Of a stretch of 64,000 nt of DNA, positions 4,531 through 64,000 are shown in pieces. This stretch comes from Chiloscyllium plagiosum (lineage: Eukaryota). Made by a program: the position numbers and the translations under genes. Every line of letters begins with the position of its first letter. The first letter of the stretch is position 1. The stretch spans positions 10,481,466-10,545,465 of the forward strand of contig NC_057719.1 in assembly GCF_004010195.1 (NCBI RefSeq), given 5' to 3'. The notes below the pieces were generated by a model, which worked only from the letters and a program-made list of their open reading frames with translations, made no database searches and was not told the origin of the DNA.

Positions 4531-4574
4531 GGTGCAGGGAATGGATGCCAGTTGAGTAGGCTGCTTTCCCCTGG

Positions 4575-4997: not shown

Positions 4998-5835
4998 TTT
5001 AAGAAGATTTGTAGTTCAGGTTGAGATTCTGGGTGGAAGTTTGCTCGCTGAGCTGGAAGGTTCATTTTCAGATGTTTCATCACCATACTAGGTAACATCA
5101 TCAGTGAGCCTCCGGTGAAGTACTGGTGTTATGTCCTGTTTTCTATTTATATGTTTAGGTTTCTTTTGGTTGGTGATATCATTTCCTGGTCTCTTTCTCG
5201 GAGGGTAATAGATGGGGTCGAAATCAATGTGTTTGTTGATAGAGTTCTGGTTAGAATGCCTTGCTTCTAGGAATTCTCATGCATGTCTCGGTTTGGCTTG
5301 TCCTAGGATGGAAATATTTGTGTCAGTCAAAATGGTGCCCTTCCTCATCTGTATGTATGAGTGGGTCATGTCTTTTTGTAGCTAGTTGATGTCCATGTAT
5401 CCTGGTGGCTAGCTTTCTGCCTGTTTGTCCAATGTATTGTTTGCTTCAGTTTTCGCAAGGTATTTTGTAGTTGATGTTTGTTTTGTCTGTTGTCTGTATA
5501 GGGTTCATTAGCTGCTGTTTTAGTGTGTTGGTGGGTTTGTGGTCTACCATGATGCCAAGAGGTCTGAGTAGTTTGACAGTCATTTCAGAGATAACTTTGA
5601 GGTAGGGGAGAGTGTTTAGGGTTTCTGGGTGGGTTTTGACTGCTTCTTTGGGTTTGTTGCTGAGAAATTGGCAGGTTGTATTCATTGGGTACCCGTTCTT
5701 TTTGAATACACCATATAGGTGGTTTTCCTCTGCTCTTCGTAGTGCCTCTGTGCAGCAGTGTGTGGTGGCTCATTGGAATGCAGCTTTGTTTATGGGTGTT
5801 GGGATGATTACTTCTATAGTTCAGTATTTGGTCCA
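4998..5835 (-). mobile_element. Penelope-like element (family 2) 3' part: RT thumb, GIY-YIG endonuclease and hammerhead-bearing terminus
   Basis: Minus-strand frames give DQILNYRSNHP, TLPYLKVISE and INYKIPCEN..YIGQTGRKLATRI (GIY-YIG motif); hammerhead core at 5068-5107. Confidence 0.85.
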
Positions 5836-6742
5836 TGGTCTGACATTTGCGTGGCGAAAATATAACTTGCCACTTGTCAGCTCAAGCCTGGATATTGTCC
5901 AGATCTTGTTTTACTTGAAAATGAACTGTTTCACTATCTGAGAAGTTACGAATGGTGATGTACATTGTGCAATCACCGGCATTCATCCTCACTTCTGACC
6001 TTATGAACGAGGGAAGGTCATTGATGAAGCAGCTGAAGGTGGTTGGGCCTAGGACTCCACCCTGAGGAACTCCTGCAGAGATGTCCTGGAGCTGAAATGA
6101 CTGACCTCCAACAATCACAACCATATTCCCATGTGCCAGGTATGACTCCAACCAGTGAAGAGTTTGTCTCCAGATACATATTGATTTCAGTTTTGCTCGT
6201 ACTCCTTGCTGCCACACTCTGTCAAACACGGCCTTGATATCAAGGGTTGTCACTGTCACCTCACCTTAAGGGCAAATGCTGGAAAATTGGATTAGAATAG
6301 TTGGATTATTGTTGATTGGGACTGACTTAGATGGGCCTTTTCCTATACTGCAGGTGTCGATGACTGTAATTCTCCATCTGTCTTGGAGCGGTTTTCGGCC
6401 CAATGCCCACTTACTTGGCGGTCTGGCCAAAGGATCTGCAAGGTTCTAGTAAAACAAGTTCACTCAAGTTGGGAGGAAGAAGACAACTTAGCCAGGATTA
6501 TAAGGCATGGATGAAAGTGGCTGAGGAAGTCAGTAGTAGGAGTGCAATTCCGGTCCCCATAAAACCCCTAAGCTGGAAACAAAGACAGAATTTAGCATCC
6601 TGTCAGTGAGCAGTAAATTGATAACCATGAGACAGGTATGGTCATCTACTTTTGATGGGAGGATGTGGTTCAGGAGGCTGCAGATGATAACAGTTAAAAA
6701 TCCCACAACACCAGGTTATAGTACAACAGGTTTATTTGGAAG

Positions 6743-6777
6743 TACTAGCTTTCGGAGCATCGCTCCTTCATCAGGTG
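6743..6777 (-). ncRNA. Minimal hammerhead ribozyme motif
   Basis: CAC CUGAUGA A GGAGC-GAU-GCUCC GAA AGCU A GU: intact core, perfect 5-bp stem II, palindromic helix III. Confidence 0.75.
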
Positions 6778-6792
6778 ATTCATCAGGACAAC

Positions 6793-6827
6793 CACCTGAT
6801 GAAGAAGCAGCGCTCCGAAAGTTAGTG
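6793..6827 (+). ncRNA. Minimal hammerhead ribozyme motif (one stem II mismatch)
   Basis: CAC CUGAUGA A GAAGC-AGC-GCUCC GAA AGUU A GUG; helix I CAC/GUG. Confidence 0.65.
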
Positions 6828-7299
6828 CTTCCAAATAAACCTGTTGGACTATAACCTGGTGTTGTGGGATTTTTAACTTTGTCCACCCCAGTCCAACACC
6901 TGCACCTCCAAATGATGACAACAGTGATCTGCTTTAATATCTTGAGCTTCCTGATATATCAGTGTTCAGACATGTCAAGATGGCAGATTCTCCATTAGTA
7001 AGACATTGAGGAGCTGAACAGTCATTTGTTTGTATGTTTCCTTCAATTCTGTTCCAAGGAAAACTAGAAAAGGGCAAGATTTGATTCGGACTCAGACCTG
7101 ACATGAATTTCAGACACTGTCCACCATCGTGCTCCCAAATCTGTCTCCACTGGATTTGGAAAATGCTACCCATTGTGTGTTAAATACTTAAAAACTGTAA
7201 CTTGTAATTTTGGCTTTCAGAAGTATTTGTATCCAATTAAGCAATTACACATAAAAATGGCACTGCATTTTCTTTTAGGGAGTGTAACTATCTCTGGTG

Positions 7300-10154: not shown

Positions 10155-10280
10155 AGGAGACAGTGAGATCTGCAGATGCTGGAGATCAGAGTTGAGAATG
10201 TGTTGCTGGAAAAGGACAGCAGTTCAGGCAGCATCTGAGGAGCAAGAGATTCGACGTTTCGGGCTGGAGGCCTTCATCAG
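10155..10280 (-). mobile_element. PLE family-1 mini-element starting at a hammerhead core
   Basis: 11-bp TSD GATGGATTTCT (10144-10154 / 10281-10291); 5' end reads CUGAUGA A GGCC-UCCA-GCCC GAAACGUC. Confidence 0.85.
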
Positions 10281-11059
10281 GATGGATTTCTGATTACCAA
10301 TGGTGTAAAGGACCATGGGGATCATCTGAGTAAAGGCATCAAAATGTTTGATCAGCCATGATTGCATTAAATCAATGGGCTGAGTGGCCTATTGCTGTTC
10401 CACTATTCATGTGGGGCATAAAATTTCAAATATTCAAAATCATCTGAAGAAAGAAATGTCTCCTTCTCTCAGTCCTAAATGATCAACTCCTTTTTACAGA
10501 AGCTGCACCCCATGTTGTAGGTTACACAGCTGGGGAACATCACTCAGTGTCTAACCAGTCAGGCCTCTTCAAAATCTCGTATGTTTATATGTGATAACTT
10601 CTCATTCTTTCAACTTTAGTCAGTGTAGCTCCAATTTACTCACCCTTTTATCATAGGACAACTCAACCCAAGAGCCAATCAAATGAACCTTTACTCCATC
10701 CAAGTAGATTCTTCATTGAAAAGGTTGCTATATTTTGGTGAAGAGGAAGGCAGATGTTAATCATGCTGCGAGTTCAGGAATCAGCTGACTTAAAGAAAAG
10801 CCAATCCCGCATCCAGATAATGCCATGGGTTAACCAGGATGACAGGGGAATTCCCACCCACAGTGGGAGAAAGACCAACCCTCAAAAGCTGCAAACAATC
10901 TGAGTGGGCAGCAGCTCTACCAGTCTCAGCAGCTCCAGAACTGAGTAGTGGGCACTGCTGGAACTGCAGGCAAACCCCCACAGGTCTTCCATGGATCCCA
11001 GAACTCAAAACACCTCTTGCTGTTCGGGAATAGACAAAGTCAGATGTCACATGACACCA

Positions 11060-11160
11060 CGGCAAAGGAGCAGCACTCTGAAAGCTTGTGATTTCAAATA
11101 AATCTGTTGGACTATAACCTGGCATCTTGTGACTTCTGACTTTGTGCAGCCCAGTCCAAC
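11060..11160 (+). mobile_element. PLE family-3 tail fragment
   Basis: Matches 6803-6900 (CTGTTGGACTATAACCTGG...CCCAGTCCAAC). Confidence 0.7.
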
Positions 11161-20190: not shown

Positions 20191-21754
20191 ATAAATGCGA
20201 GGTGCTGTATTTTGGGAAAGCAAATCTTAGCAGGACTTATACACTTAATGGTAAGGTCCTAGGGAGTGTTGCTGAACAAAGAGACCTTGGAGTGCAGGTT
20301 CATAGCTCCTTGAAAGTGGAGTTGCGGGTATGTAGGATAGTGAAGGCAGTGTCTGGTATGCTTTCCTTTATTAGTCAGAGTATTGAGTACAGGAGTTGGG
20401 AAGTCATGTTGCAGCTGTACAGGTCATTGGTTAGGCCACTGATGGAATATTGCATGCAATTCTGGTCTCCTTCCTATCAGAAAGATGTTGTGAAATGTGA
20501 AAGGGTTCAGAAAAGATTTACAAGGATGCTGCCAGGGTTGGAGGATTTGACCTATAAGGAGAGGCTGAACAGGCTGGGCTGTTTTTCCTGGAGCGTCGGA
20601 GACTGAGGGGTGATCTTATGGAGGTTTACAAAATTATGAGGGGCATGGATAGGATAAATAGACAAAGTCTTTTCCCTGAGGTCGTGGAGTGGTGGAAGTG
20701 GTGGAAACTGGTACAATTGTAACATTTAAAAGGCATTTGGATGGGTTTCTGAATAGGAAGGGTTTGGAGGGATATGGGCTAGGTACTGGCAGGTGGGACT
20801 AGATTGGGTTGGGATATCTGGTCAGCATGGACGGGTTGGACCGAAGGGTCTGTTTCCATGCTGTACATCTCTATGACTATCACTAGACCATTGACCCCCT
20901 TATTAGTGCCTATGTATATTTATGATCTCTGGTGCAGAACATGCCCCCACAGTTATTCTCAACTCAAATTGAAGTTACACATCTGGATTTCCTACCATGA
21001 CAATACTACTTCCATACCTCAAAGAAAAGTTATTTGATGATAGGCATAATTTCCAACTCTCTGTCTGCATAGTTCACAAAGCTCGCATTTTATTGCACAA
21101 TAATAATACATGCTCTGATATACATTCAATCAAAAGCAACTTAAACACTCTGCAATACAGAAATGGAATGAAAGACTGGAATCGTAATTTGAGAAGATTA
21201 GTCTAAAATAAATATTATGGATCGGAGCTGGTAATAAATATGTCTTCCGTGATTACATACTTGAATACTGCGATCAACATTCGACCACTGACTGGAGTTC
21301 TTAATGAATTTTTATTTAGAATGGTTTCTATGTCTGTAATAAGACACCAACTGAAACATGATTTCAGGCAGTGACAGCAAGTGCAGCAACAGTAGGATTG
21401 TTCAAAAAGTATATTGATGCTTTGAGAGCTGCTCCTCTTTTCTGCTCATCACATTTAGCTACAATTATAAACATTTGCGACAAAGAGTAAACATAAAAAG
21501 ATAATTATACATTGCCCATAATCACACTATTGAGCTTGAAAAATAGGCTTTGATGTATCCTCAAGTGCTCAGTATCCAATCTACATACAAATGCCAATCT
21601 ACAGTACCTTTTGAATTCAGATCCATAATGTATTACGGGCTAAATACAAAAGGCACTGATCACTATTTTAATGTACTGCATGATGAGAGAATTTTTTGGC
21701 AAATTGAGAACAAAGTACAATTTCATTTTTCCCCAACAATTCCACTCGTGTCTT

Positions 21755-22082
21755 ATTGTTGTGGTTCTGTTCGTGGAGCTGGGCATTTGTGCTGCAGACA
21801 TTTCGTCCCCTGTCTAGGTGACATCCTCAGTGCTTGGGAGCCTCCTGTGAAACACTTCTGTGATCTTTCCTCCGGCATTTATAGTGGTTTGAATCTGCTG
21901 CTTCCGGTTGTCAGTTCCAGCTGTCCACTGCAGTGGTCGGTATATTGGGTCCAGGTCGATGTGCTTATTGATTGAATCTGTGGATGAGTGCCATACCTCT
22001 AGGAATTCCCTGGCTGTTCTCTGTTTGGCTTGTCCTATAATAGTAGTGTTGTCCCAGTCAAACTCATGTTGCTTGCCATCTT
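21755..22082 (-). mobile_element. PLE (family 2b) 3' end with hammerhead
   Basis: AREFLE..SINKHIDLDPIY C-terminus; near-identical to 56730-57020. Confidence 0.85.
21794..21833 (-). ncRNA. Minimal hammerhead ribozyme motif
   Basis: GCA CUGAGGA U GUCACC-UAGACA-GGGGAC GAA AUGU C UGC; helix I GCA/UGC, GUC triplet. Confidence 0.7.
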
Positions 22083-27669: not shown

Positions 27670-28200
27670 ATATTGAGAGAGGGTTGTATAGCTGGACGAG
27701 TAATCCAGAAGCCAACTGCATGTATGATCCGGAGCCATCGGTTCAACTCCCATCAAGCCAAAGAGAATTTAAATTCAGTTAATTATGGAAATCTGGAATA
27801 AAAAATTGGCAGCAGCCAAAGCAACTGTGAGGTCTACCACAGTGCCATCAAAACCCAACGCGTTGAATAAAGCTTTTTCAGAAAAGAAACCTACAGTGCT
27901 AATCTTGTTTATCTGCTAGGTAACTCCAGAGCCAACAGTAATACAATTGACTTATAATTGCCCTTTGAAATGGTCTGGTGTATACAAGCAGAAGGCTGGA
28001 AGAACACAGCAAGCCAGGCAGAAGAAGGTGGAGAAGTCAACATTTCGGGAGTAACCCTTCTTCAGGAAGATCTAGCAAACCATTAATGCTGCCTAAACTG
28101 TTGGCACAAAATTTCAAAGAGGTGACACACCACCTTCTCAAGGACAGTTAGGGATGAGCAATAAATGCGTGTTTACCAGTGATGCTCTGATCACAGAATA
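27670..28200 (+). mobile_element. Decayed MetaSINE-like element split by a PLE mini-element (~27980-28068, minus)
   Basis: AATTTAAATTCA...CTTATAATTGCCC body; insert carries CUGAAGA A GGG-UUACU-CCC GAAAUGUU at 28037-28067. Confidence 0.6.
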
Positions 28201-31470: not shown

Positions 31471-32310
31471 CGAATAGGAAAACACATAGACCAAAACTAA
31501 ACATCCAGGTCCCCTCCACTTGAGAGTTTTTTTGGGGGGGGAGGGGGCGCACCTTTCCTCCCAAGCCCAGAGTTCCTCATTGCCAAACATTCCCATAAAG
31601 TTTTCACTGAACCGTGTCCCGCTGTTCCCAAAAATGTGAAGCAGACGGATTCAACCCGAAAGACCACCGCCTCCCTTCCCCTGACTTCACCCCCCGAATT
31701 CCCCTATTCCCTCTCTGAGATTTGTCGAGAAAGAGCCAGTTCTCTCGGTGGTGGGATACCCGACCGAGGCCGAATGTCAACTTTTGCATATATTTTCCTC
31801 TCTGTACGGGGGGGGAGCTGAAGACACTGGACTGGATCGAAGACAAAATATAGGCATCTACTATGGTCAGACCCTGAATGGCCTGTACACTTAGAGCTGC
31901 CGGAGTGGCTCAGAGACCCATTCTATCCGCCCGATTGTATCACACTTTTACCCGGGCTGAGCTTCTGTGGTGCAATGGTCATGTCGCTACTTCTAAACAA
32001 GGCAGACTGGGTTCAAGTCTCACCTCCTTCACAAAGCATATAATACCATCCCTGAGTTAGCCGATCCGGTAAATATCGACTGCTCACATTTAAGGCTATT
32101 TCGCTGTCCCTCGCCTCCACAGCAAATGGTTTATCTTTTTATATATATACATATATATATATTAAAAACCCATCATTAATGGCAACTCCCTGCAGGCTAT
32201 AATTTTATGTACAGCTTGTGAAATGAATATTAGATCACATCACGGCCTGCCTGACTAGGTATTCTAAGTAATCATGTAGACACCAATATGTTCAAATGCA
32301 CTATTTGAAT

Positions 32311-32410
32311 CTGAAGATGGGTCACTGGACTCGAAACGTTAACCTTGCCTTTTCCCACAGATGCTGCCAGACCTGCTGAGGTTCTCCTGCAATTTCGATT
32401 TTTGGATTTT
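32311..32410 (+). mobile_element. PLE family-4 mini-element starting at a hammerhead core
   Basis: CUGAAGA U GGGUC-ACUG-GACUC GAAACGUU AAC, then CAGATGCTGCCAGACCTGCTGAG tail. Confidence 0.75.
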
Positions 32411-39162: not shown

Positions 39163-39290
39163 TCTGAAGAAGTATCACTGGACCTGAAACGTTAACTCTC
39201 ATTTCTCTCCACAGATGCTGCCAGACCTGCTGAGTTCCTCCAGCAATTTTGGTTTTTGTTTCAGATTTCCAGCATCTGCAATTCTTTCTT
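39163..39290 (+). mobile_element. PLE family-4 mini-element
   Basis: CTGAAGA...GAAACGTTAAC plus tail, as at 32311. Confidence 0.75.
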
Positions 39291-40286
39291 TTTATTTTAC
39301 TATTGATTCAATTCATTTTCTGTGTGCTGATAAGTTAGTTAGTTATCTGCCAACTATATTGAAAAGAGAAATGAGTAACTAATAAAACCTAATTCCATGA
39401 TGACTTAGCAGTTCCTGGCCATCTATAACGCAGAAAACATAGACAGAAACCTCTTCAGCTTCATTTCTTTGCCAGTTCAAGAAATATTGCAATATATAAC
39501 TGGAGAAGACTATTCAGCCCCTCTGACTTGTTCAGTGAAGTCATGGCTGATCTGCATGATAATTTCATCTGCCCAACTTAGTTCCATAAACCTGAATAAC
39601 CCTGGCTTGACAAAAAAAAAAATCTACCAATGCCAATTGTGTAAACTTTCACCAGCGTCAATGTTTGGCAGGACAGGAGGCATCCAAATTTCCATTGTTC
39701 TTTTACCTCAAGAAGTGTTTCTTACAATCTCGAATGAACAGCCTAACTTTAATGTTATGGTCGTATTCCTTATGCTGGACTCCACCACCAATAAAGGATA
39801 GAGTTAGCCCCAATTTCTTCTTTCAACCGTCATACAGGATATGAGTTTCAATGGGTCCATGTGCCCTACTCATAAAATAACCAAGACTGAGAGAAAGAGA
39901 GCACACATTTAAAGTGACTTGCAAATGAAGTAGACGTGAGAAAATATGAAGTAAGAAAAACCTTTTTCACACAGTGCCTCGATCAGGTTTGGAATGCAAT
40001 AACTGCAAGTGCGGTGGAGGCAGGTTTAATAGAAACATTCAAAAGGACATTAGATGGTTATTTAAATGGAAGCAAGGTTTAGACTTATGAAGGAAGGGTG
40101 GGATAATCGTCCTCAGTCATGATGCTCATTTGGAGAACCAGTGCAAATACAGAGGGCCGCATCACTTAAAAGTCATAGTCATACAGTATGGAAACAGACC
40201 CTTCAGTCCAACCAGTCCATGATGAACATAATCCCAATCTGATGAAGAGTCATTAAGACTCAAAACTTAACGTGTCCTCTCTCCAT

Positions 40287-41010: not shown

Positions 41011-41440
41011 TGTTTCACAATTCATGGATGTTGCCTGCCCCATTGTGACCTTGACCATTTGTTGTTTTCAGTACAGATTCCATCATCTGTAATAACGTGC
41101 CCCTATAATCCCAAACTAAACTAGTCCCAGCTGCCTGCTCCTGACCCATATCCCTCCTTACCTTGCTCTGCGTTATAACAAATCTGTGATTCTGTGATGT
41201 CTTGTATTGACTTTGACTGCCTAAGAATGACTGGACAGAAATTTTACACAATACATTTTGCCTTTTTGCTCCTAGGTGTATTCACTTTAATGTTTTTACC
41301 TCTCCTCGAGGGAACGAGGAAGAATTGTCCAGCCATAATGCCCTATTTTCCTACTCATAATTTAAATGTGCATTTAACTCCTCAATTAACCTACAATCAA
41401 TGGAATACAAGCTTAGAACATACAATGTGTTCCCATATTT

Positions 41441-41680
41441 TCAAAATCACATGACACCAGGTTATGGTCTGACAGGTCTTTTGAAAGTACAAATTTTCGC
41501 AGCACTTGTAGGTAGCTAGCTATAAAGTCTGTGTCCTATGTTCCAGCTCCACTCGCTGCCCAACAAAGGAGCAGCGATCTGAAAGCTCGTACTTCCAAAA
41601 AAACCTGTTGGACTATAACCTGGTGTTGTGTGATTTTTAACTTTGTTCACCTCAGTCCAACACTGGCTCCTCAACATCAT
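41441..41680. mobile_element. Older foldback PLE family-3 mini-element
   Basis: Inverted arms homologous to 6695-6913; hammerhead cores decayed. Confidence 0.7.
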
Positions 41681-42073
41681 TACTATCTATCCATAGAAAC
41701 GTGCAAGAAAAGAGTTGAGTGGTTTAAATAAGTCTTGTTTACCAATTTTTATTTCAGCCTGCCCATGTCCAGCCAATCCTTTTGTTCTCTTTTTTTGGCT
41801 CCAGCCTGATCTGATATGGCCTCGACCCAGCTTCAGTGTCATCCTGTATAAAGTCAATGACATCAAGAGGCATGAGAGTGTTCGCCTTGAGGATTGTCAG
41901 GTTAACTGGTTTTCAAATGTTGATGTCGTTGCCTCTCCATTTCACTTCAAGCAAGAAACCGATAAATCACCTGATGTACTAATGCCAATGCCAAGGAATT
42001 TAGAATTGGAGCTTCTACTCAATCCAAGGCAATGTCCTGCATTGTCTCTTGTAGATCCACCTCAACACCTGGA

Positions 42074-44556: not shown

Positions 44557-45264
44557 AAAACCTTGCATTCAGATAGTGCCTTTTGCAAACCCAGGGCCTC
44601 CTAATGCATTTTATAGTCAATTCGTCCTTTTGAAATGTAGTCGCTATTGTAAGGTGGGAACCCAATTCGCAAATTTACTCACAGTGAAACGTCACAAACA
44701 ACTATGTGATATTGACAACATAATCTATTTCTATCATCCCCGGCCAATATTTCCGTCTCAGTCAACACCACCAAAATAGATACAGAATCAGAAATTTCTG
44801 GAAAAACTCAGTGCGTCTGGCTAATCTAGTTCTGAAGCAGGATTAGTGGACCCAATCACTACATCTGATCTATAATTAGCATTCTTATTCCAGATGAAGG
44901 GCTTATGCCCAAAACGTCAACTCTCCTGCTCCGAGGATGCTGTCTGACATACTGTGCTTTTCCTGATTGCAGGCATATATCTCTGATTACAGGTATATAT
45001 CTCTATAGTTATCGTTGAAATTATAACTTTTCGACTATAATTAGCAATGTCCTATTGACCAGACAATCCATTTCAGTAACAAAAAAGAACAAAGAAATAC
45101 GGATGCTGGCAATCAGAATCGACACCTATGGAGTGAAAGGAGAGTTGATGTTTTGGATCCATTCTTCAGAAGTAGATAGCCAGACCTGCTGCGTTTTTCC
45201 AGCAATTTCTGATTTTGAATCTATTCCAGTGATGTTGACTAAGCAAATTATTGGCCAGGGTCCT

Positions 45265-45724: not shown

Positions 45725-46716
45725 TTTCAAGAAGATTTGTAGCTCAGGTTAAGGTTCTGGATGTAGGTTTGCTCGCTGTGCTGGAAGGCCCATATTCAGA
45801 TATCTCATCACCCTACTAGGTAACATCTCCTCGATGCTGCCTGAATTGCTGTGCTCTTCCAGCACCATTGATCCAGAATCTGGTTTCCAGCATCTGCAGT
45901 CATTGTTTTTAACATCTTCAGTGAGCCTCCAGACGAGGCGCTGCTGGTGTTTCCTGATTTCTATTTATATGTTTGGGTTTCCTTGGGTTGGTGATGTCAT
46001 TTCCTGTGGTGATGTCATTTCCTATGGTGATATCATTTCATGTTTTTTTTTCTCTCAGCCGGTGGTAAATCGGGTCCAGGTCATTGTGTTTGTTGAGTTC
46101 CAGTTGGAATGCCATGTTTTTGGAATTCTCGTGCATGTCTCTGTTTGGCTTGTCCTAGGATGGACGTGTTGTCCCAGTCGAAGTGCTGTCATTCCTTATC
46201 TGTATGTAAGGACACTAGTGAGACAGGGTCATGTCGTTTGGTGGCTAGTTTTCTGCCTGTTTGTCCGAGCCACCAGGATACATGAACATCAACTCGCCAC
46301 AAAACGACATGACCCTGTCTCACTAGTATCCTTACATACAGATGAGGAAGGGCACCACTTCGATGGGACAACACATCCATCCTAGGACAAACCAAACAGA
46401 GATGCACACGAGAATTCCTAGAAGCATGACATTCCAACCGGAACTCTATCAACAAACACATTGACTTGGATCCCTTTACCACACCCTGAGAGAAAAAAAA
46501 AACAACAGAATATGACATCACCATAGGAAATAACGTCCCCACAGGAAATGACATCACCAACCCGAGGAAACCAAGGGACTCTCAAACAGAATACATCAAC
46601 AGAAAGCAGGAAACACCAACAGTGTTTCATCTGGAGGCTCACTGAAGATGTTGCCTAGTACGGTGATGAAACATCTGAAAATGAACCTTCCAGCTCAGTG
46701 AGCAAAACTGCATCCA
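45725..46716. mobile_element. PLE family 2 as a large inverted duplication of its 3' end
   Basis: 45725-46260 (minus) mirrors 46265-46716 (plus); ATKRHDPVSLVSLHTD coding remnant; 18-bp GGTGATGTCATTTCCTRT subrepeats; hammerhead at 46639-46678. Confidence 0.85.
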
Positions 46717-50009: not shown

Positions 50010-50142
50010 ATAGAACATAGAACATAGAAGAATACAGCGCAGTACAGGCCCTTTGGCCCTCGATGTTGCGCCGATCCAAGCCCACCGAACCTATACTAAC
50101 CCACTATCCTCCATATACCTATCCAATGCCCGCTTAAATGCC
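50010..50142 (-). mobile_element. Short young CR1 3' tail in the satellite
   Basis: (TAGAACA)n terminus; CpGs retained. Confidence 0.75.
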
Positions 50143-53125: not shown

Positions 53126-53625
53126 NNNNNNNNNNNNNNNNNNNNNNNNNNNNNNNNNNNNNNNNNNNNNNNNNNNNNNNNNNNNNNNNNNNNNNNNNNN
53201 NNNNNNNNNNNNNNNNNNNNNNNNNNNNNNNNNNNNNNNNNNNNNNNNNNNNNNNNNNNNNNNNNNNNNNNNNNNNNNNNNNNNNNNNNNNNNNNNNNNN
53301 NNNNNNNNNNNNNNNNNNNNNNNNNNNNNNNNNNNNNNNNNNNNNNNNNNNNNNNNNNNNNNNNNNNNNNNNNNNNNNNNNNNNNNNNNNNNNNNNNNNN
53401 NNNNNNNNNNNNNNNNNNNNNNNNNNNNNNNNNNNNNNNNNNNNNNNNNNNNNNNNNNNNNNNNNNNNNNNNNNNNNNNNNNNNNNNNNNNNNNNNNNNN
53501 NNNNNNNNNNNNNNNNNNNNNNNNNNNNNNNNNNNNNNNNNNNNNNNNNNNNNNNNNNNNNNNNNNNNNNNNNNNNNNNNNNNNNNNNNNNNNNNNNNNN
53601 NNNNNNNNNNNNNNNNNNNNNNNNN
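53126..53625. other. Assembly gap (exactly 500 N)
   Basis: N run. Confidence 1.
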
Positions 53626-56600
53626 TCTCTGATTGCAGGTATGTGTCTCTGATTGCTGTTATACATCTCTGATTGCATGTATGCATCTCTGATTGCCGGT
53701 ATGTGTCTCCGATGACACGTATCTGTCTCCGATGACACGTATGTGTCTCTGATTGCGGGTATGCATCTCTGAGTGCAGTTATGTGTCTCTGGTTACAGGT
53801 ATGTGTCTCTGATTGCAGCTATGAGTCTCTGATTGCAGGTATGTGTCTGTGATTGTGGGTATGCATCTCTGATTGCAGGTATGTGTCTCTGATTACAGGT
53901 ATGCGTCTCTGATTGCAGGTATGTGACTCTGATTGCAGGTATGCGTCTTTGATTGCAGGTATGTGTGTCTGGTTACAGGTATGTGTCTCTGACTACATGT
54001 ATGCATCTCTGATTACAGGTATGTTTCTCAGATTGCATGTATGCGTCTCTGATTGCAGATATGCATCTCTGATTGCAGGTATCCGTATCTGATTGCAGAT
54101 ATGTGTCTCTGATTACAGGAATGTGTCTCTGATTGCATATATGTGTCTCTGATTGCAGGTATATATCTCTGATTGCATGTATTTGTCTTTGATTGCAGGT
54201 ACGTGTCTCTGAAAACACGTATGTTTCTCTGATTGTGGGTATGCATCTCTGATTGCAGGTATGTGTCTCTGATTACAGATATGCATCTCTGATTGTGGGT
54301 ATGCATCTCTCATTGCAGGTATGCATCTTTGATTACAGGTATGTGTCTCTGATTGCAGGTATGTGTCTCTGATTGCATGTTTGCATCTCTGATTGCAGGT
54401 TTGTGCCTCTAATTGCAGGTATGCATCCCTGATTACAGGTATATGTTTCTGATTACAGGTATGTGTCTCTGATTGCATGTATGTGTCTCTGATTGCAGGT
54501 TTGTGCCTCTGATTGCAGGTATGCATCCCTGATTACAGATATATGTTTCTGATTACAGGTATATAACTCAGATTGCAGGTATGCATCTCTGATTGCAGAT
54601 ATGTGTCTCTGATTGCAGGTATGTGTCTCTGATTACAGGTATGTATCTCTGATTGCAGGTATGTGTCACTGATTGCAGGTTTGTGCCTCTGATTGCAGGT
54701 ATGCATCCCTGATTACAGGTATATGTTTCTGATTACAGGTATATAACTCAGATTGCAGGTATGCATCTCTATGTTTACAGATATGTATTTCTGATTACAG
54801 GTATGTCTCTCTTATTACAGGTATACATCTCTGAATATAGGCATGTATCTCTGATTATAGGTGTGTATCTCAGATTTCAGCTATGCATTTCTGATTTCTG
54901 GTCTGTATCTCTGATTTCAGATATGCACCCCTGATTACAGGTATGTGGCTCTGATTACACGTATGTATTTCTAACTGAATATATGCGTCTCTGATTGCAG
55001 GTATGTGTCTCTGATTACAGGTATATAGCTCGGATTACAGGTCTGTATCTCTGATTACAGGTTTGTATCTCTAATTTCAGGTATGCATCTTGGATTACAG
55101 GTGTGTATCACTGATTACAGGTTTGTATCGCTAATTTCAGGTATGCATCTTGGATTACAGGTATGTATCTCTGATTACCGGTTTGTATCTCTAATTTCAG
55201 GTATGCATCTTGGATTACAGGTGTGTATCTCTGATTACAGGCATGCATCTCTGGTGATCGGTATGTACTTCTGATTACAGGTATTTGTCTCGGATTGCAG
55301 GTCTGTATCCATGATTTCAGGTATTTATCTCTGATTACAGGTATGTGTCACTAATTACAGGTATGCATCTCAGATTGCAGGTATGCATCTCTCATTGCAG
55401 GTATGTTTATCTGATTACAGGTATGTATCACTGACTACAGGTGGGTGTCTCTTATTACAGGTATGTGTTTCTGTTTACAGGTATGTAACTCAGATTACAG
55501 CTATGCCTCTCTGATTGCAGAGATGTATCTCTGATTACAGCTATATATCTCTGGTAACAGGTATGCATCTCTGATTAGAAGTATGTGTTTCTGATTACAG
55601 GTATGCATCTCTGATTACAGGTTTATATCTCATTACAGGTATATACCTCTGATTACAGGCATGTGTCTCTGAATACAGATTTGTGTCTCTGATTGCACGT
55701 ATGTTTCTCTGATTACAGGTATGCATCTCTGATTACAGATATGTATCTCTGATTACAGGAATGCATCTTTGATTAAGGCATATATCTCTTATTACCAGTA
55801 TGTATCTCTGAATACAGGTACATATCTCTGATTACTGGTGTGTGTTTGAGATTACAGGTAGGCATCTCTGATTACAACTGTATATCTCTTATTACAGGTA
55901 TGTATCTCTGATTATAGGTATATATCTCTGATTATGGGTATGTGTCTCTTATTACAGATATGCATCTCTGATTATATGTTTATATCTCTGATAACTGGAA
56001 TATATGCCTGATTACAGGTATGAATCCCTGATTACAGGTATGCATCTCTGATTACAGGAATGTGTCTCTGATTACAGGTATGTATCTCTGATTACAGGTA
56101 TGTATCTCAGATTACAGCTATGCCTCTCTGATTGCAGAGATGTATCTCTGATTACAGCTATATATCTCTGGTAACAGGTATGCATCTCTGATTAGAAGTA
56201 TGTGTTTCTGATTACAGGTATGCATCTCTGATTACAGGTTTATATCTCTGTTTAGAAGTATCTGTCTCTGATTACAGGTCTGCATCTCTGATTACAGATT
56301 TGCATCTCTGTTTAGAAGTATGTGTCTCTGATTATCGGTATGCATCTCTGATTACAAGTTTGCATCTCTGATTACGGGTCTACATCTCTGATTACAGGAA
56401 TGTATCTTTGATTACAGGTATGCATCTATGATTGCACATATATAACTCAGATTACAGGTATATATCTCTGATTACAGATATGCATCTCTGATTAGAAATA
56501 TTTGTCTCTGATTACCGATATGCATCTCTGCTTACAGGTATGCATCTTTGAATACAGGTATGAGTCTCTGATTACAGGCATAAGTCTCTGATACAGGTAT

Positions 56601-56729
56601 GCCTCTCTGATTAGACTTATATATCTCTGATTACTGGTATGTGTCTCTGATTACAGGTATCTATCTCTGATTATGGGTATGCGTCTCTGAATACAGATAT
56701 GTGTCTCTGATTACAGGTATGTATCTCTG

Positions 56730-57020
56730 TTGTTGTGGTTCTGTTCGCCGAGCTGGAAATTTTTGTTGCAAACATTTCGTCCCCTGTCTAGGTGACATCC
56801 TCAGTGCTTGGGAGCCTCCTGCGAAGCGCTTCTGTGGTGTTTCCTCCGGCATTTATAGTGGCCTGTCCCTGCCGCTTCCGGTTGTCAGTTTCAGCTGTCC
56901 GCTGTAGTGGCCGGTATATTGGGTCCAGGTCGATGTGTTTGTTGATGGAGTTTGTGGATGAGTGCCATGCTTCTAGGAATTCCCTGGCTGTTCTTTGTTT
57001 GGCTTGCCCTTTCATGGTAG
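56730..57020 (-). mobile_element. PLE family-2b 3' end with hammerhead (56768-56807)
   Basis: ORF 56788-57015 GQAKQRTAREFLEAWHSSTNSINKHIDLDPIY. Confidence 0.85.
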
Positions 57021-59845
57021 TGTATCTCTGATTACTGATATGTGTCTCTGATTGCAGGCATGCACCTCTGATTATAGGTATGTATCTGTGATTACAGGTC
57101 TGTGTCTCTGATTACAAGTATGTATCTCCGACTGGAGATATGCGTCTCTGATTACAGGTATGTTTCCCTGATTGCAGGTATGAATCTCTGATTACACATA
57201 TGTATCTCTGATTAAAGGTATGCCTCTCTGCTTACAGGTATGCATCTCTGATTACATATATGTATCTCTGATTATGGGTATGTTCTCTGATTACAGGTAT
57301 ACATCTCTGATTACAGGTATGTGTCTTTGATTACAGGTATGCATCTTTGATTACTCTTATATAACTCAGATTACAGGTATATATCTCTGATTACAAATAT
57401 GCATCTCCATTACCGATGTGCATCTCTGCTCACAGGTATGCACCTTTGATTACAGGTATGAGTCTCTGATTACAGGTTTGGTCTCTGATTACACGTATAC
57501 ATCTCTGATTAGACTTATGTATCTCTGAAAACTGGTATGTGATTTTGAATACAGGTATGTATCTCTGATTACAGGTATGTATCTCTGAATACAGATATGT
57601 GTCTTTGATTACAGGTTTGTATCTCTGATTACAGGTTTGTATCTCTGATTACAGGTTTGTATCTCTGATTACTGATATGTTTCTCTGATTGCAGGCATGT
57701 ACCTCTGATTACAGGTATGTATCTGTGATTACAGGTCTGTGTCTCTGAATACCGGTATGTATCTCTGACTGCAGATATGTGTCTCTGATTACAGGTATGT
57801 CTTGCTGAGTTCACGTATGAATCTCTGATTGCACGTATGTATCTCTGATTACACATATGCCTCTCTGCTTTCAGGTATGCATCTCTGATTATGGGTATGT
57901 GTCTCCGATTACAGGTATACATCTCTGATTACAGGTATGTGTCTTTGATTACTGGAATGTGTCTCTGATTGCGTGTAGGTATCTCTGATTACAGGTATGC
58001 CTCTCTCATTAAAGGTATGCATCTCTGATTACGGGTATGTCTCTCTGAGTACAGGTATGTTTCTCTAGTTACAGGTATGTGTCTCTGATTACAGGTATGC
58101 ATTGCTGATTACAGTTATATATGTCTTTAGGGTGTAGGTTTGCTCGCTGAGCTGTACGTTTGATATCCATCCATATCCATTACATATGTCTGATTACAGG
58201 GATATATCTCTGATTGCAGGTGTGTATCTCTGATTACAGGTATGCATTTCTGATTACAGGTATGCATCTCTGCTTGCATGTATTTATCTCTGATTACTGA
58301 CATGTGTCTCTGATTACTGGTACGTGTCTCTGATTGGATGTATGTATCTCTGATTACAGATATGTGTCTCTGATTACACGTATGTGTCTCTGATTACAGG
58401 TTTGTGTCTCTAATTACAGGTATGCGTCTCTGATTACGCATATGTATCTCTGAATACTGGTATGTGTCTCTGATTTTTGGTATGTATCTGATTACAGGTA
58501 TGTGACACTGATTACAGGTATATATCTCTGCTTACAGGTATGAATCTCTGATTACACATTTGTATCTCTGATTAAAGGCATGCCTCTCTCATTACAGCTA
58601 TGTATCTCTGATTACAGGTATGCATCTCTGATTGCAGATATGTGTCTCTGATTACAGGTATGTGTCTCTGATTACAGGTATATATCTCTGATGACAGGCA
58701 TATATCTCTGATTACAGGTATGTGTCTCTGATTAAAGGCATGCCTCTCTCATTATAGTCATGTATCTCTGATTACAGGTATACATCTCTGATTACAGGTA
58801 TATATCTCTGATGACAGGCATATATCTCTGATTACAGGTATGTGTCTCTCATTAAAGGCATGCCTCTCTCATTATAGTCATGTATCTCTGATTACAGGTA
58901 TACATCTCTGATTACAGGTATGTTTCTCTGATTATAGGTATATATCTCCGATTACAGGTATGCATCTCTGATTACAGGTATACATCTCTGATTGCAGGTA
59001 TGTGTCTCTGATTGCATGTATGTATCTCTGATTACAGGTATGTAAACTCTGATTAAAGGTATGCCTCTCTCATTACAGGTATATCTCTCTGATTACAGGT
59101 ATGTCCCTCTGAGTACAGGTATGTTTCTCTACAGGCGTGTGTCTCTGATTACAGATATGCATTGCTGATTACAGTTGTATATGTCTGATTACAGGGATAT
59201 ATCTTTGATTGCAGGTGTGTGTCTCTGATTACAGGTATGCGTCTCTGGTTTCAGGTATGCATCTCTGCTTACATGTATTTATCTCTGATTACTGATATGT
59301 GTCTCTGATTACTGGTACGTGTCTCTGATTGCATGCATGTATCTCTGATTACAGATATGTGTCTCGGATTACAGGTATGAGTCTCTGATTACATATAACT
59401 GATTACAGATTTGTGTCTCTGATTACAGGTATGCAACTCTGATTACTCGTATGTATCTCTGAATACTGGTATGTGTCTCTGATTACTGGTATGTATGTGA
59501 TTACAGGTAAGTGACACTGATTACAGGTATGTATTGCTGATTACAGGTATGAATCTCTGATTACACATATGTGTCTCTGATTAAAGGCATGCCTCTTATT
59601 ACAGCATGTATCTCTGATTACAGGTATGTATCTCTGATTACAGGTATGTATCTCTGATTACATGTATGTATCTCTGATTAAAGGCATGCCTCTCTCATTA
59701 CAGCCATGCATATCTGTGTCTCTGATTACAGGTATGTATCTCTGATGACGGTATGCGTCTCTGATTACAGGTATGTGTCTCTGATTGCATGTAAGTATCT
59801 CTGATTAAAGCTATATCTCTCTCATTACAGGTATGTATCTCTGAT

Positions 59846-60138
59846 TAGATTACCTACAGTGGAAACAGGCCCTTTGGTGCAACAAGTCCACACCGACCCT
59901 CCAAAGATCTACCCACCACACCCATTCCCCTACATTTACCCCTGCACCTAATACTACGGGCAATTTAGCATGGCCAATTCACCTAACCTGCACATCTTTG
60001 TGACTGTGGGAAGAAACCCACGCAGACAAGGAGAGAATGTGCAAACTCCACACAGACAGTTGCCTGCAGCGGGAATTGAACCCGGGTCCCAGGTGCTGTG
60101 AGGCAGCAGTGCTAACCACTAAGCCACCGTGCCACCCT
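59846..60138 (-). mobile_element. HE1-type V-SINE in the satellite
   Basis: Near-consensus sequence. Confidence 0.9.
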
Positions 60139-60227
60139 AAAACAGGTATGCTTCTCTGATTACAGGTATGTGTCTCTGTTTCCAGGTATCTATCTCTGAT
60201 TACGAGTACATGTCTCTGAATCTCATC

Positions 60228-60617
60228 TAGTCTCACTGGTATCCTTACATACAGATGAGGGAGGACATCACTTCGATTGGGACAACACATCCATCCTAGG
60301 ACAAGCCAAACAGAGACACGCACGAGAATTCCTTGAAACATGTCAATCCAACCGGAACTCTACGAACAAACACATTGACTTGGATCCCATTTACCACCCC
60401 ATGAGAAAAAGAACAGAAAATGGCATCACCACAGGAAATTATGTCACCACAGGAAATGACGTCACCAATCCAAGGAAACTTAAACACATAAACAGAAAGC
60501 GGGTCATGCCACTAGTGCTTCATCCCGAGGCTCACTGATGATGTTACCTAGTATGGTGATGAAACGTCTGAAAATGAACCTTCCCACTCAGTGAGCAAAC
60601 CTACATCGAGAACCTCA
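60228..60617 (+). mobile_element. PLE family-2 3' end bounding the satellite
   Basis: Homologous to 46318-46716. Confidence 0.85.
60532..60571 (+). ncRNA. Minimal hammerhead ribozyme motif, apparently intact
   Basis: UCA CUGAUGA U GUUACC-UAGUAU-GGUGAU GAA ACGU C UGA: helix I UCA/UGA, ACGU palindrome, GUC triplet. Confidence 0.75.
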
Positions 60618-61082
60618 AAGCTCACTAAGTGTATAATTGATGATAAGGTTTTGATTTTGGATTTCAAATAGAGGCAAATGGAGGTGAGTCAATTTTGAGA
60701 AGCTCATTTTATTATTGAATAAGCTAGCAAGTCATTCAGAACAGTGATTTCAGTGCATCAATTCCAAGAAAGCATGTCGCTGTAGTTAAATGCCTGGGTG
60801 AACCACTGTTCCAGTGTTCATGCCAGAATTGCTGAGTTTTCAACTTACCAGGAATTGATTAATTTAGTTTTGACTTTTGAGCTCAGTTCAGAAGAAGCAG
60901 GAGTTCAGTTTAGTTACTCATTGTAGGAGAATCAAGTTGCTTTCAGGAGAACCAGTCACTTTAGCTGAAGTGTTTTATTTCTGTGGAGATAACCAGTGAA
61001 GAGAGATTGAAGAGAAATGTACAAGTGTTAGAACTGAAACGTTTTAGAATTATGAAAGATTCATAATGGTATACTCACGAAA

Positions 61083-61960
61083 TTACCTTCGCAGCCCAAG
61101 GGAATGAAACTTGGAGAGGTCAGTCCACGTGGACGAGGACAGATTGTTGGTGATCATCACTCCCAGGAACTTGACACTCTTGGCAATCTCCCCCTCAGCA
61201 CCATTGATGCAGTCAGGGGCATGCTCTTCACTCAGCTTCCTGAAGTCAATGACCAGCTCCTTTGCCTTGTTGACGTTGATGGAGAGATTGTTGACTTTAT
61301 TCCCTGCCACTAAGCACTGAGTCTCTTTCCTATAGTCTGTCTTGTCATTGTTTGAGATCCAGCCTATAATGGTAGTGTCATCAGCAAACCTGTAAATGGA
61401 GTTGGGGCAGAATTTGGCCATTCAGTTGTGAGTGAATAGAAGTATAGTAGAGGGCTAAGTACACAGCCTTGTGAGGCACCAGTGTTGAGGATTGTGGTGG
61501 AGAAAATGTTTTTCATCTATTCTTATGGATTGCGATCTATGGTTGGGAAGTCAAGGATTTAGTAACAGAGGGGGGAGCCAAGACTAGGTCTCAGAGTTTA
61601 GAGATGAGTTTGTTTGTAACTATGTTGTTGCAGGCAGACCTATAGTCAAAAAGTAGAAAGCTGACATGGTATCCTTGTTCTCCAAACGCTTCAGCAATTA
61701 GTGTCGGGCCAGGGAATTGGTATCAAGATTAAAGTGGTGCTGGAAAAGCACAGCAGGTCAGACAGCATCCAAGGTGCAGGAAAATCAATGTTTCAGGCAA
61801 AAGCCCTTCATCAGGAACCTTTTTGCCCAAAACGTTGATTTTCCTGCTCCTCGGATGCTGCCTGAACTGTTTTGTGTTTCCAGCACCACTCTAATCTTGA
61901 CTCTAATCTCCAGCATCTGCAGTACCCACTTCAATCCAGGGAAATGGCATCTGTTGTAGA
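61083..61960 (-). mobile_element. Rex1/Babar-type LINE RT fragment
   Basis: RFADDTTIIGWISNNDKTDYR...NNLSINVNKAKELVIDFRK. Confidence 0.8.
61717..61935. mobile_element. Foldback PLE family-1 mini-element
   Basis: Inverted arms ~61724-61803 / 61820-61899; TSD CCAGGGAA (61709-61716 / 61936-61943); minus-strand core CUGAUGA A GGGC-UUUU-GCCU GAAAC at 61784-61817. Confidence 0.8.
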
Positions 61961-61969
61961 CCCAATAGG

Positions 61970-64000
61970 TGAATTACAAAGGCTGCGTATTCAGCCCCCT
62001 ACTAATTGGTGGTGGGGGTCTGATTGTAAGTGATGGAAATGTCAGAGAATGATGCATTGGATTCGGAGTGTTCGAGAGGTTGGTGAGGTGGTACGTGAGG
62101 ACAAAGGGGACTCTATCCTTATTGTGGTTGAGTGTAGGGTAGTTGAGAGCAGAAGTGTGGAAGGTGGGGAAGGTGTGGTTGAGGGCATCTTGAATTACTG
62201 AGGAGGCAAAATTATGGTCCCCAAAGTAGGAGGACATCTGGGATGGCCTGAAGAGGAACACCTCAGCTCGTGAAGTGTTCAAACTCCTCGTGAGAGCATG
62301 AGGCAGCATCAATACAGTCATCCATGTAGCGGAGGAAAAGGTGGGGGATAGTGCCAGTGTAGTTGTGGAAGAGGAACTGTTCTACGAATCCTCCAAATGG
62401 ACTGGCATAGCTTGGGCCCAGAAGAAAGTGAGAACTGCAGATGGTGAAGCTCAGAGTCAAGAGTGTGATGCTGGAAAAGCACAACAGGTCAGGCAGCATC
62501 CGAGGAGCAGGAAAATCAAAGTTTTGGGCATAAGTCCTTCATCAGGAATGTTGGATCTGTCTGGTTTCATTTTTTGGAATTTGATCTTATTTATTTTTCC
62601 AGATTTCTGAAGTTTTTTTTGAGTAGGCCTATGATTCAGTTCTCGAGTTGTGGGGTTGGGGGTCTATCGCCGCTTGTTGGTAAGTGTTGGTATCTGCAAG
62701 TAGTGCGTTCACCTTCTCAATGCAGATTCTTTGATGTAAAATGACTATCAAGCATCCTTTGTCTACAGGTAGGTTAACAATATTTTTTATCTTTTTTTTA
62801 GTTTTACAGCACTTTCCTTGTGTTTTGAGTGTGTTTCCTTCCTTTTACCTGTTAATGTTGATGCGACTGTCAATCTGATTGCTGGGTTTCCTCTGTGAGT
62901 TGGTTGTCTTTCAGTGTTGTTTCTAATGCTGCTAAGAAATCGGTCTTGCCCACATCCTGGTAGTTGTAATTTAATCCTCTTACTAAGGTGGATTTTTCAG
63001 TGTCTGTTAAGGGTTGGTCAGATAATTTTTTTTATCCATGCTTCTGTGTTGTCTGTGTTGTTATTGTGTGTAAGTTTGTCTCGGCTTTTCTGCAGGTCTA
63101 GTCTTTTTCCATTTTTTGTGTTTGTCGCTGTCTAATGTCGATGGCTTGTTGTACTCTCACTGGTATCCTTACTTACAGATGAGGAAGGACACCACTTCAC
63201 CTGGGACAACACATCCATCCTAGGACAAGCCAAACAAAGACATGCATGAGAATTCCTAGAAGCATGTCATTCCAACCGGAACTCTATCAACAAACACATT
63301 GACTTGGATCCCATTTACCTTGCCGCTATCTTGCTTGCACCCATGGCTACCCCTTTGGTTTGTAGGAAGTAGGAGGAATCAAATGAAAAATTGTTGAAGG
63401 TGAGGATCAGTTCTGTCAGGCAAATGAATTGGGCTGAGGGGAGAGGAAGAAGCAGAGGGCTTTTAGGCCCTCCGAGTGGGGGATGCAGGTGTAATGGACT
63501 GTACGTCCATGGTGAAGATGAGGTGTTGGGGGCTGGGGAGTTGAAAGTTTTGGAAGAGGTGGAGGGCATGGGTTGTGTCTTGAATGTAGGTGGGGGTTAT
63601 TGGACGAAAGGGGAAAGAATGGAGGAGAGGTAAGAGGAAATGAGCTTGATGGGGCAGGAGCAGGCAGAGACAAAGAGGAAGTCAGATTTATGGATTTTGA
63701 GTAGGAGATAGAAATGGACAGTGCATGGTTGGGGAACTGTCAGGTTAGAGGCGGTAGATGGGAGATTTCCTGAAGTGATGAGGTCGTTGATGGTCTGGTA
63801 GATGATCGTTTGGCGATCAGCGGTGGGGAACAGTCATAGGGAAGAAAGGAGGAGGTGTGACAGAGTTAGCAGCTGGCTTCAGAGATATAGATGTCAGTTC
63901 ACCATACTAACACACTATTACTGCCTTATTGGTGGGTTTAATAGTGAGGTTGGGTTGGAGCGAAGGGATTAGAAGGTGGCACGTTCCGATGGGAAATGTT
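61970..64000 (-). mobile_element. Penelope-like RT region split by nested insertions
   Basis: LILTFNNFSFDSSYFLQTKGVAMG (~63340-63420) continues as GPSYAS...LFLRYMDDCI (62420-62310). Confidence 0.85.
62425..63318. mobile_element. Nested PLE pieces: family-1 mini-element (62425-62550, minus), PLE pre-RT region (62551-63150, minus, probably family 2), family-2 C-terminus (63153-63318, plus)
   Basis: DKG...ALLADTNTYQQ-like remnant; 63153-63318 matches 60231-60395. Confidence 0.7.

What the first reader, a model, noticed from the sequence alone, without database searches (positions are those of the whole stretch)
5068..62550. Dispersed network of minimal hammerhead ribozymes with at least five covarying stem II variants
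Seen: the pattern CUGANGA-N-[stem II]-GAAA-NNUH recurs on both strands with unrelated but base-paired stems: GGAGC/GCUCC (6743-6777, 6793-6827), GGGC/GCCY (10249-10283, 61784-61817; decayed at 183, 4660, 38146, 44891, 62520), GUUACC/GGUGAU (5068, 46639, 60532), GUCACC/GGGGAC (21794, 56768), GGGUC/GACUC (32311; decayed at 39164, 40240) and GGG/CCC (28037). Helix I also covaries (CAC/GUG, UCA/UGA, GCA/UGC). In the best-preserved copies helix III is a 4-nt palindrome (ACGU or AGCU) too short to close as a monomer, and one extra nucleotide follows A9. Known: Penelope-like elements carry minimal type I hammerheads thought to cleave as dimers. Inference: several independent PLE lineages in this genome retain the motif, at roughly one per 4 kb, so transcripts crossing intact copies might self-cleave. 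I cannot tell whether these shark families are already catalogued.
Basis: partly seen in the sequence, partly recalled or inferred. Interest (0 to 1): 0.85.

Follow-up and report, generated by a model that had tools for sequence, protein, structure and literature searches.

The report
Penelope retrotransposon hammerhead relics, six families
The scattered ribozyme-like motifs are real, and they are the already described minimal hammerheads at the tail ends of Penelope-like jumping genes; the scattered copies mutate as freely as the DNA beside them, so they are likely dead leftovers rather than a working network.

Summary
Observation confirmed: 9 descriptor hits against 0.27 in shuffles. 12 of the 18 listed sites keep the catalytic core; only 60532 keeps everything. 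All six stem-II families are 3' ends of Penelope-like elements (PLEs). Two are Poseidon-type (A, D) and four Neptune-type or Neptune-related (B, C, E, F), linked to RT and/or GIY-YIG coding sequence elsewhere in the genome. This matches the minimal hammerhead of Cervera and de la Pena 2014, including the extra nucleotide, the palindromic helix III and several families per genome. Private mutations hit core and tail alike (2.5% vs 2.9%, p=0.53), so the stems covary between master elements, while dispersed copies are likely fossils. The window's density is genome-typical: about one remnant per 4 kb, and roughly 200,000 intact-core motifs by extrapolation. Two side results: in Poseidon-type units both the ORF stop and the next AUG lie inside the ribozyme; in Neptune-type families 5' ends pile up at the ribozyme's 5' edge, not at its cut site. 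This scan reported the same families and the pile-up before, on other pieces of this genome. No cleavage was tested.

The parts
60231..60618 (+). Family A (Poseidon-type) 3' remnant: GIY-YIG C-terminus, hammerhead 60532-60571 (C3 60535, cut after 60568), short tail. Only fully intact motif in the window. ORF stop is the UGA of CUGA; AUG at A9
5009..5836 (-). Family A remnant: RT thumb and endonuclease (broken), hammerhead 5068-5107 (helix III ACAU), long tail
45737..46716 (.). Family A head-to-head insertion: minus arm 45737-46250 with its hammerhead interrupted near 45910, plus arm 46268-46716 with hammerhead 46639-46678 (ACAU)
21745..22081 (-). Family D (Poseidon-type, young) remnant: endonuclease end, hammerhead 21794-21833 (A.G mismatch in stem II, AUGU). 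ORF stop UAG in loop II, AUG at A9
56728..57023 (-). Family D remnant inside the 20-bp satellite, hammerhead 56768-56807
6692..6919 (.). Family B (Neptune-type) head-to-head mini-insertion: minus hammerhead C3 6774 with short tail, plus hammerhead C3 6796 (broken stem) with long tail. Flanked by a 12-bp near-duplication 6683-6694 / 6914-6925
11065..11160 (+).
41440..41683 (.).
10..264 (+). Family C (Neptune-type) 3' UTR plus decayed hammerhead (C3 position 180)
4574..4687 (-). Family C mini-copy, truncated in CUGA, G12-to-A
10170..10282 (-). Family C mini-copy, core intact, stem II mismatched, starts 1 nt before C3
38065..38175 (-). Family C mini-copy starting at C3, G12-to-A
44884..44963 (+). 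Family C mini-copy, core broken
61723..61931 (.). Family C head-to-head pair (minus hammerhead C3 61814, ACAU). Flanked by a 16-bp near-duplication 61709-61724 / 61936-61951
62434..62550 (-). Family C mini-copy, G12-to-A
32310..32404 (+). Family E (Neptune-related) mini-copy, core and stem II intact, 5' strand of helix I lost
39163..39263 (+). Family E mini-copy, stem II decayed
40239..40280 (+). Family E-like decayed motif, G12-to-A (assigned by eye)
27981..28067 (-). Family F (Neptune-related) mini-copy, core intact, starts 2 nt before C3
58129..58169 (-). Tail of a seventh, A-related family (G), without the motif, inside the satellite
61974..62420 (-). Broken Neptune-type RT/thumb fragment
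63340..63992 (-). Broken Neptune-type ORF fragment (70% to family C parent L211)

Best explanation
The motifs are minimal type I hammerheads carried in the 3' end module of at least six Penelope-like retrotransposon families, and the dispersed copies are 5'-truncated insertions that decay like neighbouring sequence and are therefore likely inert. Mechanism: (1, shown) a full unit is ribozyme-ORF-ribozyme, with RT and GIY-YIG domains. (2, shown in the copies; biochemistry from the anole element) reverse transcription starts at one of two sites about 75-85 or 110-125 nt downstream of C3, beyond the cut site, so the template is uncleaved or circular and every copy receives the tail first and then the ribozyme. 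(3, shown) synthesis usually stops early, leaving solo or head-to-head stubs with one long and one short tail. (4, inferred) the ribozyme is under selection only in the master elements, where it would cut as a dimer through the palindromic helix III, probably helped by the element's protein, to process tandem transcripts. This keeps the core fixed while stems covary between families. (5, shown statistically) after insertion the core is not protected, and G12 and the ACGU palindrome lie in CpG sites that decay fast.
For: Full-length family D units L197 (2431 nt between ribozymes) and L191. Pfam RVT_1 E=1.1e-9 and GIY-YIG E=1.1e-5. Parent ORFs upstream of C (L211, L213) and B (L215, L217, L218) with a CxxxxCxxC-type linker. 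Endonuclease fragments 300-400 nt upstream of E and F motifs. Two 3' end classes, and one long plus one short tail in 29 of 31 D pairs and 26 of 27 B pairs, a few loci counted more than once. This matches the tail and the two start sites in PMC11167929 and PMC8557442. Singleton non-CpG substitutions in 113 copies: core 28/1132, tail 102/3556, p=0.53; base-matched expectation 30.6. G12-to-A in 11 of 59 C, 9 of 33 B and 8 of 15 E copies. No pile-up of 5' ends at the cut site: 7 of 205 within 1 nt, against 22 over the 18 flanking positions. The motif matches the published consensus.
Against: I attribute this to inherited subfamily variants and to alignment trimming, because it vanished with singletons and long copies. 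One of 18 family tests stayed at p=0.025 (F, best hits included). The test cannot see a small minority of selected copies. Young D copies are mostly intact (46 of 50 cores), and about 50,000 fully intact motifs are extrapolated (6 in 387 kb), so some could cut by chance. No cleavage assay exists for these families. Both full-length copies examined have frameshifts.
Confidence: 0.85

Rival explanations
1. The dispersed copies act as a host-level network: transcripts that cross intact copies cut themselves, as intramolecular dimers of two same-family copies in one pre-mRNA or in trans.
For: Very high number of motifs (24 in 386,731 bases; about 210,000 extrapolated, 95% interval 140,000-320,000). 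Same-strand same-family pairs exist in the window (46642 and 60535; 21830 and 56804). Family D sequence, ribozyme included, is present in one RNA run (1019 reads).
Against: No protection of the core after insertion. 1 of 18 listed sites is fully intact. The hammerhead-like fold was not the predicted minimum-energy fold for any of the 15 copies folded, and the two inverted pairs form -32 and -38 kcal/mol hairpins. Published monomers do not cut and dimers cut weakly; the anole motif needs protein.
Confidence: 0.05
2. The 90-130 nt Neptune-type stubs are a non-autonomous SINE- or retrozyme-like element that copies itself from its own short RNA starting at the ribozyme.
For: 5' ends pile up at -9 to +6 of C3: 50 of 72 copies still extending there, against 0 of 11 in Poseidon-type families (p=1e-5). 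Retrozymes derive from PLE ends.
Against: Starts are spread over about 15 nt rather than at one base, and longer copies run on into the parent UTR and ORF. 86 of 164 stubs have an inverted partner with variable junctions, and the other flanks are unique apart from one 14-nt match. Tandem Repeats Finder showed no array of these units in the window.
Confidence: 0.08
3. The motif is kept as a protein-binding or coding constraint and not for cleavage. In Poseidon-type elements it overlaps the start codon and the conserved K-R-L of the ORF.
For: AUG = A9, extra U, G10.1, and GAAACGUC encodes K-R-L, conserved in a flatworm homolog. Ribozyme mutants did not affect insertion in vitro, and no reads ended at the cut site in the anole element.
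Against: The same core is kept in Neptune-type families, where it lies about 100-750 nt past the stop codon or the end of the conserved ORF. Compensatory C3/G8 rescue of cleavage was shown for the anole motif.
Confidence: 0.12

Closest known systems
Minimal hammerheads (min-HHR) of metazoan PLEs, Cervera and de la Pena 2014 (PMC4209133)
   Same: CUGANGA, one extra nucleotide, G10.1-C11.1, short helix I, palindromic minimal helix III, several covarying families per genome, mostly single truncated copies, opposite-strand pairs. Found in fish, coelacanth (about 4,000) and Xenopus (about 9,000).
   Different: No shark sequence found in the parts read or in the 2 supplementary files searched (1 file could not be searched). 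The count here extrapolates to about 50,000 (strict) to 210,000 (core plus stem II), with a different descriptor.
Poseidon element PAc of Anolis, Frangieh et al. 2024 (PMC11167929)
   Same: ORF starts at the base of stem II, cut site a few codons inside the ORF (26 nt there, 28 nt here), two internal RT start sites giving the optional tail, uncleaved template.
   Different: In shark families A, D and G the upstream ORF also ends inside the ribozyme (UGA of CUGA in A; UAG in loop II in D and G), so there is no UTR between units. 'Stop codon' does not occur in that paper's main text. No biochemistry here.
Neptune-clade PLEs (Craig et al. 2021, PMC8557442) and PLE insertion units (Arkhipova et al. 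2013, PMC3846280)
   Same: Zn-finger-like linker between RT and endonuclease in B and C, 5' truncation, adjacent inverted copy, tail at one end only, target duplications.
   Different: A pile-up of 5' ends at the ribozyme's 5' edge was not found in the passages read.
Non-LTR retrozymes (Li et al. 2026, bioRxiv 10.64898/2026.07.22.740005)
   Same: Type I hammerhead derived from PLE ends; reported in the one chondrichthyan sampled.
   Different: Those are tandem arrays; the copies here are dispersed monomers or head-to-head pairs.

Membership tests
Metazoan PLE minimal hammerhead | Core CUGANGA ... GAAA ... UH | tested here: met
   12 of 18 window sites; 74 of 113 longer genomic copies
Metazoan PLE minimal hammerhead | Extra nucleotide between A9 and G10.1 | tested here: met
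   U in A and D; mostly A in B, C, E, F
Metazoan PLE minimal hammerhead | Palindromic minimal helix III | tested here: met
   ACGU commonest in C (40/59) and D (35/50), AGCU in B (26/33); A, E and F mixed with CpG-decayed forms
Metazoan PLE minimal hammerhead | Short helix I and stem II with covariation between families | tested here: met
   Six different helix I and stem II pairings; read from counts, no formal covariation statistic
Metazoan PLE minimal hammerhead | Located in the terminal repeat of a PLE | tested here: met
   Both ends of L197 and L191; downstream of ORFs in L002, L211, L213, L215, L218; E and F by endonuclease fragments only
Metazoan PLE minimal hammerhead | Self-cleavage as a dimer or with protein help | not testable with these tools
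   No assay; the RNA library laid cannot show native ends
Endonuclease-positive PLE | Single ORF with RT and C-terminal GIY-YIG | tested here: met
   Pfam hits on D and C pieces; continuous frames L183, L211, L213, L215
Endonuclease-positive PLE | 5' truncation, inverted partner, optional tail at one end | tested here: met
Penelope/Poseidon clade (A, D, G) | No Zn-finger-like linker between RT and endonuclease | tested here: met
   None seen in the D and A frames; no tree with named reference elements was built
Neptune clade (B, C) | CX2-5CxxC linker between RT and endonuclease | tested here: met
   CNRRRCNTC in C, CHGRRCKTC-type in B. Nematis shares the linker and was not excluded
Neptune clade (E, F) | CX2-5CxxC linker between RT and endonuclease | tested here: inconclusive
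   Only short decayed endonuclease pieces, 42-55% identical to family C
Non-LTR retrozyme | Head-to-tail tandem array of short hammerhead units | tested here: not met
   No such array in the window; genome-wide arrays were not searched
Rfam hammerhead families | Match to a curated covariance model | tested here: not met
   No hammerhead among 12 matches at E up to 10

The most novel reading that the evidence does not exclude
The PLE hammerhead is the hinge of the element's life cycle, and this genome records it. In Poseidon-type families the whole stop-start junction lies inside the ribozyme, with no UTR and an ORF 11 nt longer than the 2431-nt unit, so cutting would strip the AUG and only a tandem or re-circularised RNA could be translated: a switch between message and template. 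In Neptune-type families a defined RNA start or a strong RT stop at the ribozyme's 5' edge produces hundreds of thousands of 90-130 nt stubs, possibly the largest ribozyme-motif load known in a vertebrate.
Probability: 0.25. Interest if true: 0.55.

Novelty: new member of a known kind. Interest (0 to 1): 0.2.

Why it matters
As found, it adds shark families to a class described in 2014. The role of the PLE hammerhead is still open (PMC8557442, PMC11167929), and a genome with very many copies of at least six lineages is a good statistical test bed. It already shows that copied templates were not cut, that selection acts on masters and not on copies, and that two clades place the ribozyme differently relative to the ORF. 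A working host-wide cleavage network would matter much more, but the evidence here is against it.

Tried and rejected
Rfam scan: no hammerhead model; weak miRNA-type matches fall on the two inverted pairs. Pfam on 14 window frames: only two RT hits (RVT_1, at 5882 and 19512, read as LINE-type by eye), nothing for the short PLE pieces. Looking for a fossil of in vivo cleavage (5' ends at the cut site): no clear excess. Looking for a shared upstream exon or leader in stubs: none among 78 non-inverted flanks apart from one 14-nt match. First core-versus-tail count rejected as biased by subfamily variants and end trimming; redone with singletons and long copies. Copies that were the seeded best hits, touched a locus edge or N, or ended early were left out of the main counts (479 tail hits; 113 to 286 used, by test). 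Sequencing runs: no RNA holder on record in the index. Of two raw single-cell poly(A) runs of a coded organism, one gave 1019 reads and one gave 0. Depth follows the DNA copy profile, 74% of reads run on into unlike sequence, and no start or end pile-up was seen, but such libraries cannot show native ends, so this is no evidence on cleavage. Unconstrained cofolding of two copies of the 60532 motif gave an alternative duplex, not the double hammerhead; folding energies are uninformative for this motif. No full-length Neptune-type unit was found among 8 long copies fetched. Lunse et al. 2017 could not be read.
Full report
Observation. All 18 sites are there. A descriptor for core, extra nucleotide, stem II and GAAA finds 9 hits in the window against 0.27 on average in 100 block shuffles, and 5 against 0.03 when helix I of 3 bp is required. 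An audit shows 12 of 18 with an intact core and one (60532) with everything intact. Self-comparison groups the sites into six repeat families: A (GUUACC), B (GGAGC), C (GGGC), D (GUCACC), E (GGGUC) and F (GGG). Rfam has no model that catches them.

What carries them. Each family has a thousand or more first-look candidates in the own genome (1,501 to 6,542). A and D continue upstream into RT and GIY-YIG coding sequence. Two full-length but frameshifted D units have a ribozyme at each end, 2431 nt apart in L197. C and B lie downstream of long ORFs with RT, a CxxxxCxxC-type linker and GIY-YIG, which PMC8557442 gives as the mark of Neptune and Nematis. E and F lie 300-400 nt behind related endonuclease fragments. 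Protein identity is 62% between A and D, 31% between B and C, and 23-28% across clades, so the lineages are old. The nearest database proteins to D are named as carpet-shark 'uncharacterized' proteins (83-91% for the closest), then flatworm and unnamed proteins (mostly 42-56%; best 120 of 1062 listed).

Density. In 40 stretches of 10 kb at fixed round positions on 28 large contigs (386,731 called bases) there are 27 descriptor hits against 0.95 in 20 shuffles and 98 tail hits, one per 3.9 kb. So the window is ordinary for this genome. Extrapolation gives about 210,000 motifs with core and stem II (n=24; 140,000-320,000) and about 53,000 with helix I and a perfect palindrome (n=6; 20,000-116,000). 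PMC4209133 reports about 4,000 in coelacanth and 9,000 in Xenopus with another descriptor.

How the copies arise. 3' ends fall in two classes about 35-40 nt apart in A, B and D, both downstream of the cut site. Head-to-head pairs carry one long and one short tail in 29 of 31 D pairs and 26 of 27 B pairs. This is the known optional tail, explained in the anole element by two internal RT start sites on an uncleaved template. Only 7 of 205 Neptune-type copies begin within 1 nt of the cut site, against 22 over the 18 flanking positions, so there is no clear fossil of cleaved templates. The two inverted pairs in the window have 12- and 16-bp near-duplications at their flanks.

Are the copies functional? 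Among 113 copies that were not seeded hits and extend at least 20 nt upstream, singleton non-CpG substitutions are 28/1132 in the core and 102/3556 in the tail (p=0.53; base-matched expectation 30.6). A first count of all variants had shown a lower rate in the core for C and D. It fell away once shared subfamily variants and end trimming were removed; one of 18 family tests remains at p=0.025. G12 follows C11.1 and the palindrome is ACGU, both CpG sites, and both decay often. Half of the shortest copies have an inverted partner (86 of 164), predicted to fold into long hairpins. I conclude that covariation records selection on master elements and that the copies are fossils. A small domesticated minority cannot be excluded. 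One RNA run holds family D reads with depth continuous across the cut site (220 at place 3260, 183 at 3290), but the library cannot show native ends.

Side result 1. In A, D and G the 'extra nucleotide' is the U of an AUG (A9, U, G10.1). The frame it opens in L197 aligns with residue 1 of an 824-aa flatworm homolog (48% over 73 columns, E=1.6e-16 in a local set of 120). The upstream ORF ends at the UGA of CUGA in A and at UAG in loop II in D and G. A start codon in the ribozyme is known for the anole element. The stop inside it was not found in two searches or in that paper. Cutting 28 nt after the AUG would remove the start, so translation would need an uncut tandem or circular RNA; this is inference. 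PMC13725137 shows that type I hammerhead cleavage can drive cap-independent translation in fungal viruses, which offers another route.

Side result 2. In B, C, E and F, 50 of 72 copies from the window and the fixed stretches that still extend at +6 end between -9 and +6 of C3 (0.071 per nt against 0.003-0.013 elsewhere); in A, D and G 0 of 11 do (p=1e-5). Their flanks are inverted partners or unique DNA, not missed UTRs. An RNA 5' end or an RT stop at the ribozyme would both explain this; I cannot separate them.

Literature seen. PMC4209133: parts 1-2 of 4 of the main text, part 2 of 3 of one supplement, and a term search in 2 supplement files, 1 file not searchable. PMC11167929: parts 1-2 of 4 and passages; its supplements, unseen, may show the stop codon position. 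bioRxiv 10.64898/2026.07.22.740005: parts 1 and 3 of 5 and passages; supplements not seen. PMC8557442, PMC3846280, PMC6765202, PMC6155905: passages. PMC13725137: abstract and passages. Lunse et al. 2017: not read, known through the review. No paper on shark PLE hammerheads appeared in the listings of searches. Repbase and Dfam could not be checked, so 'uncatalogued' is not shown. Family letters are mine; the hammerhead numbering and the CpG-decay reading rest on general knowledge.

Earlier notes of this scan. Ten findings hold the same words; of the 8 shown, 7 are from other pieces of this genome and reach the same reading, one of them the 5' pile-up. They were read after my tests and are not independent support.

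Verdict. Real, correctly recognised, of a known kind, and mostly dead. Interest 0.2.

Noticed in passing
window 46716-59847 (also 45363-45717, 44963-45004, 60142-60219): A 20-bp satellite of about 656 copies, with PLE stubs inserted in it (D at 56728-57023, G tail at 58129-58169) and a family A stub abutting its start.
   Followed up: no
tails of families B, C, E (e.g. window 32341-32400, 61821-61880): By eye the Neptune-type tails look like intron 3' ends (branch-point-like word, pyrimidine run, CAG); PLEs are known to carry introns near the terminal repeat. Not tested.
   Followed up: no
L183 ORF: After carpet sharks, the closest listed relatives of the family D protein are unnamed records and tapeworm or fluke proteins at up to about 56% identity; host-parasite transfer is a possibility. 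No tree built, and only 7999 candidates were scored.
   Followed up: no
L213:3160-3760: An 81-nt piece of the family C ORF 5' region is repeated about four times in frame ahead of a near-complete ORF.
   Followed up: no
window 3925-4501, 5882-6265, 18722-20880, 23087-24489, 30557-31028, 42286-43541: Many LINE-type RT fragments in both orientations (Pfam RVT_1 on two of them); CR1-like by recall.
   Followed up: no
window 33400-36300: CpG-rich, repeat-poor stretch that may be a promoter or first-exon region; no coding exon identified.
   Followed up: partly
L197:1110-3534, run X21: First mates lie mostly on the plus strand (about 4- to 10-fold in most bins), which would mean sense-strand element RNA; a poly-T loose end at 1817 suggests internal oligo-dT priming could cause the bias.
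   Followed up: partly
L080: An open frame resembling a cyclin-dependent kinase inhibitor (recalled likeness) lies in the same 3-kb locus as a family B inverted pair.
   Followed up: no
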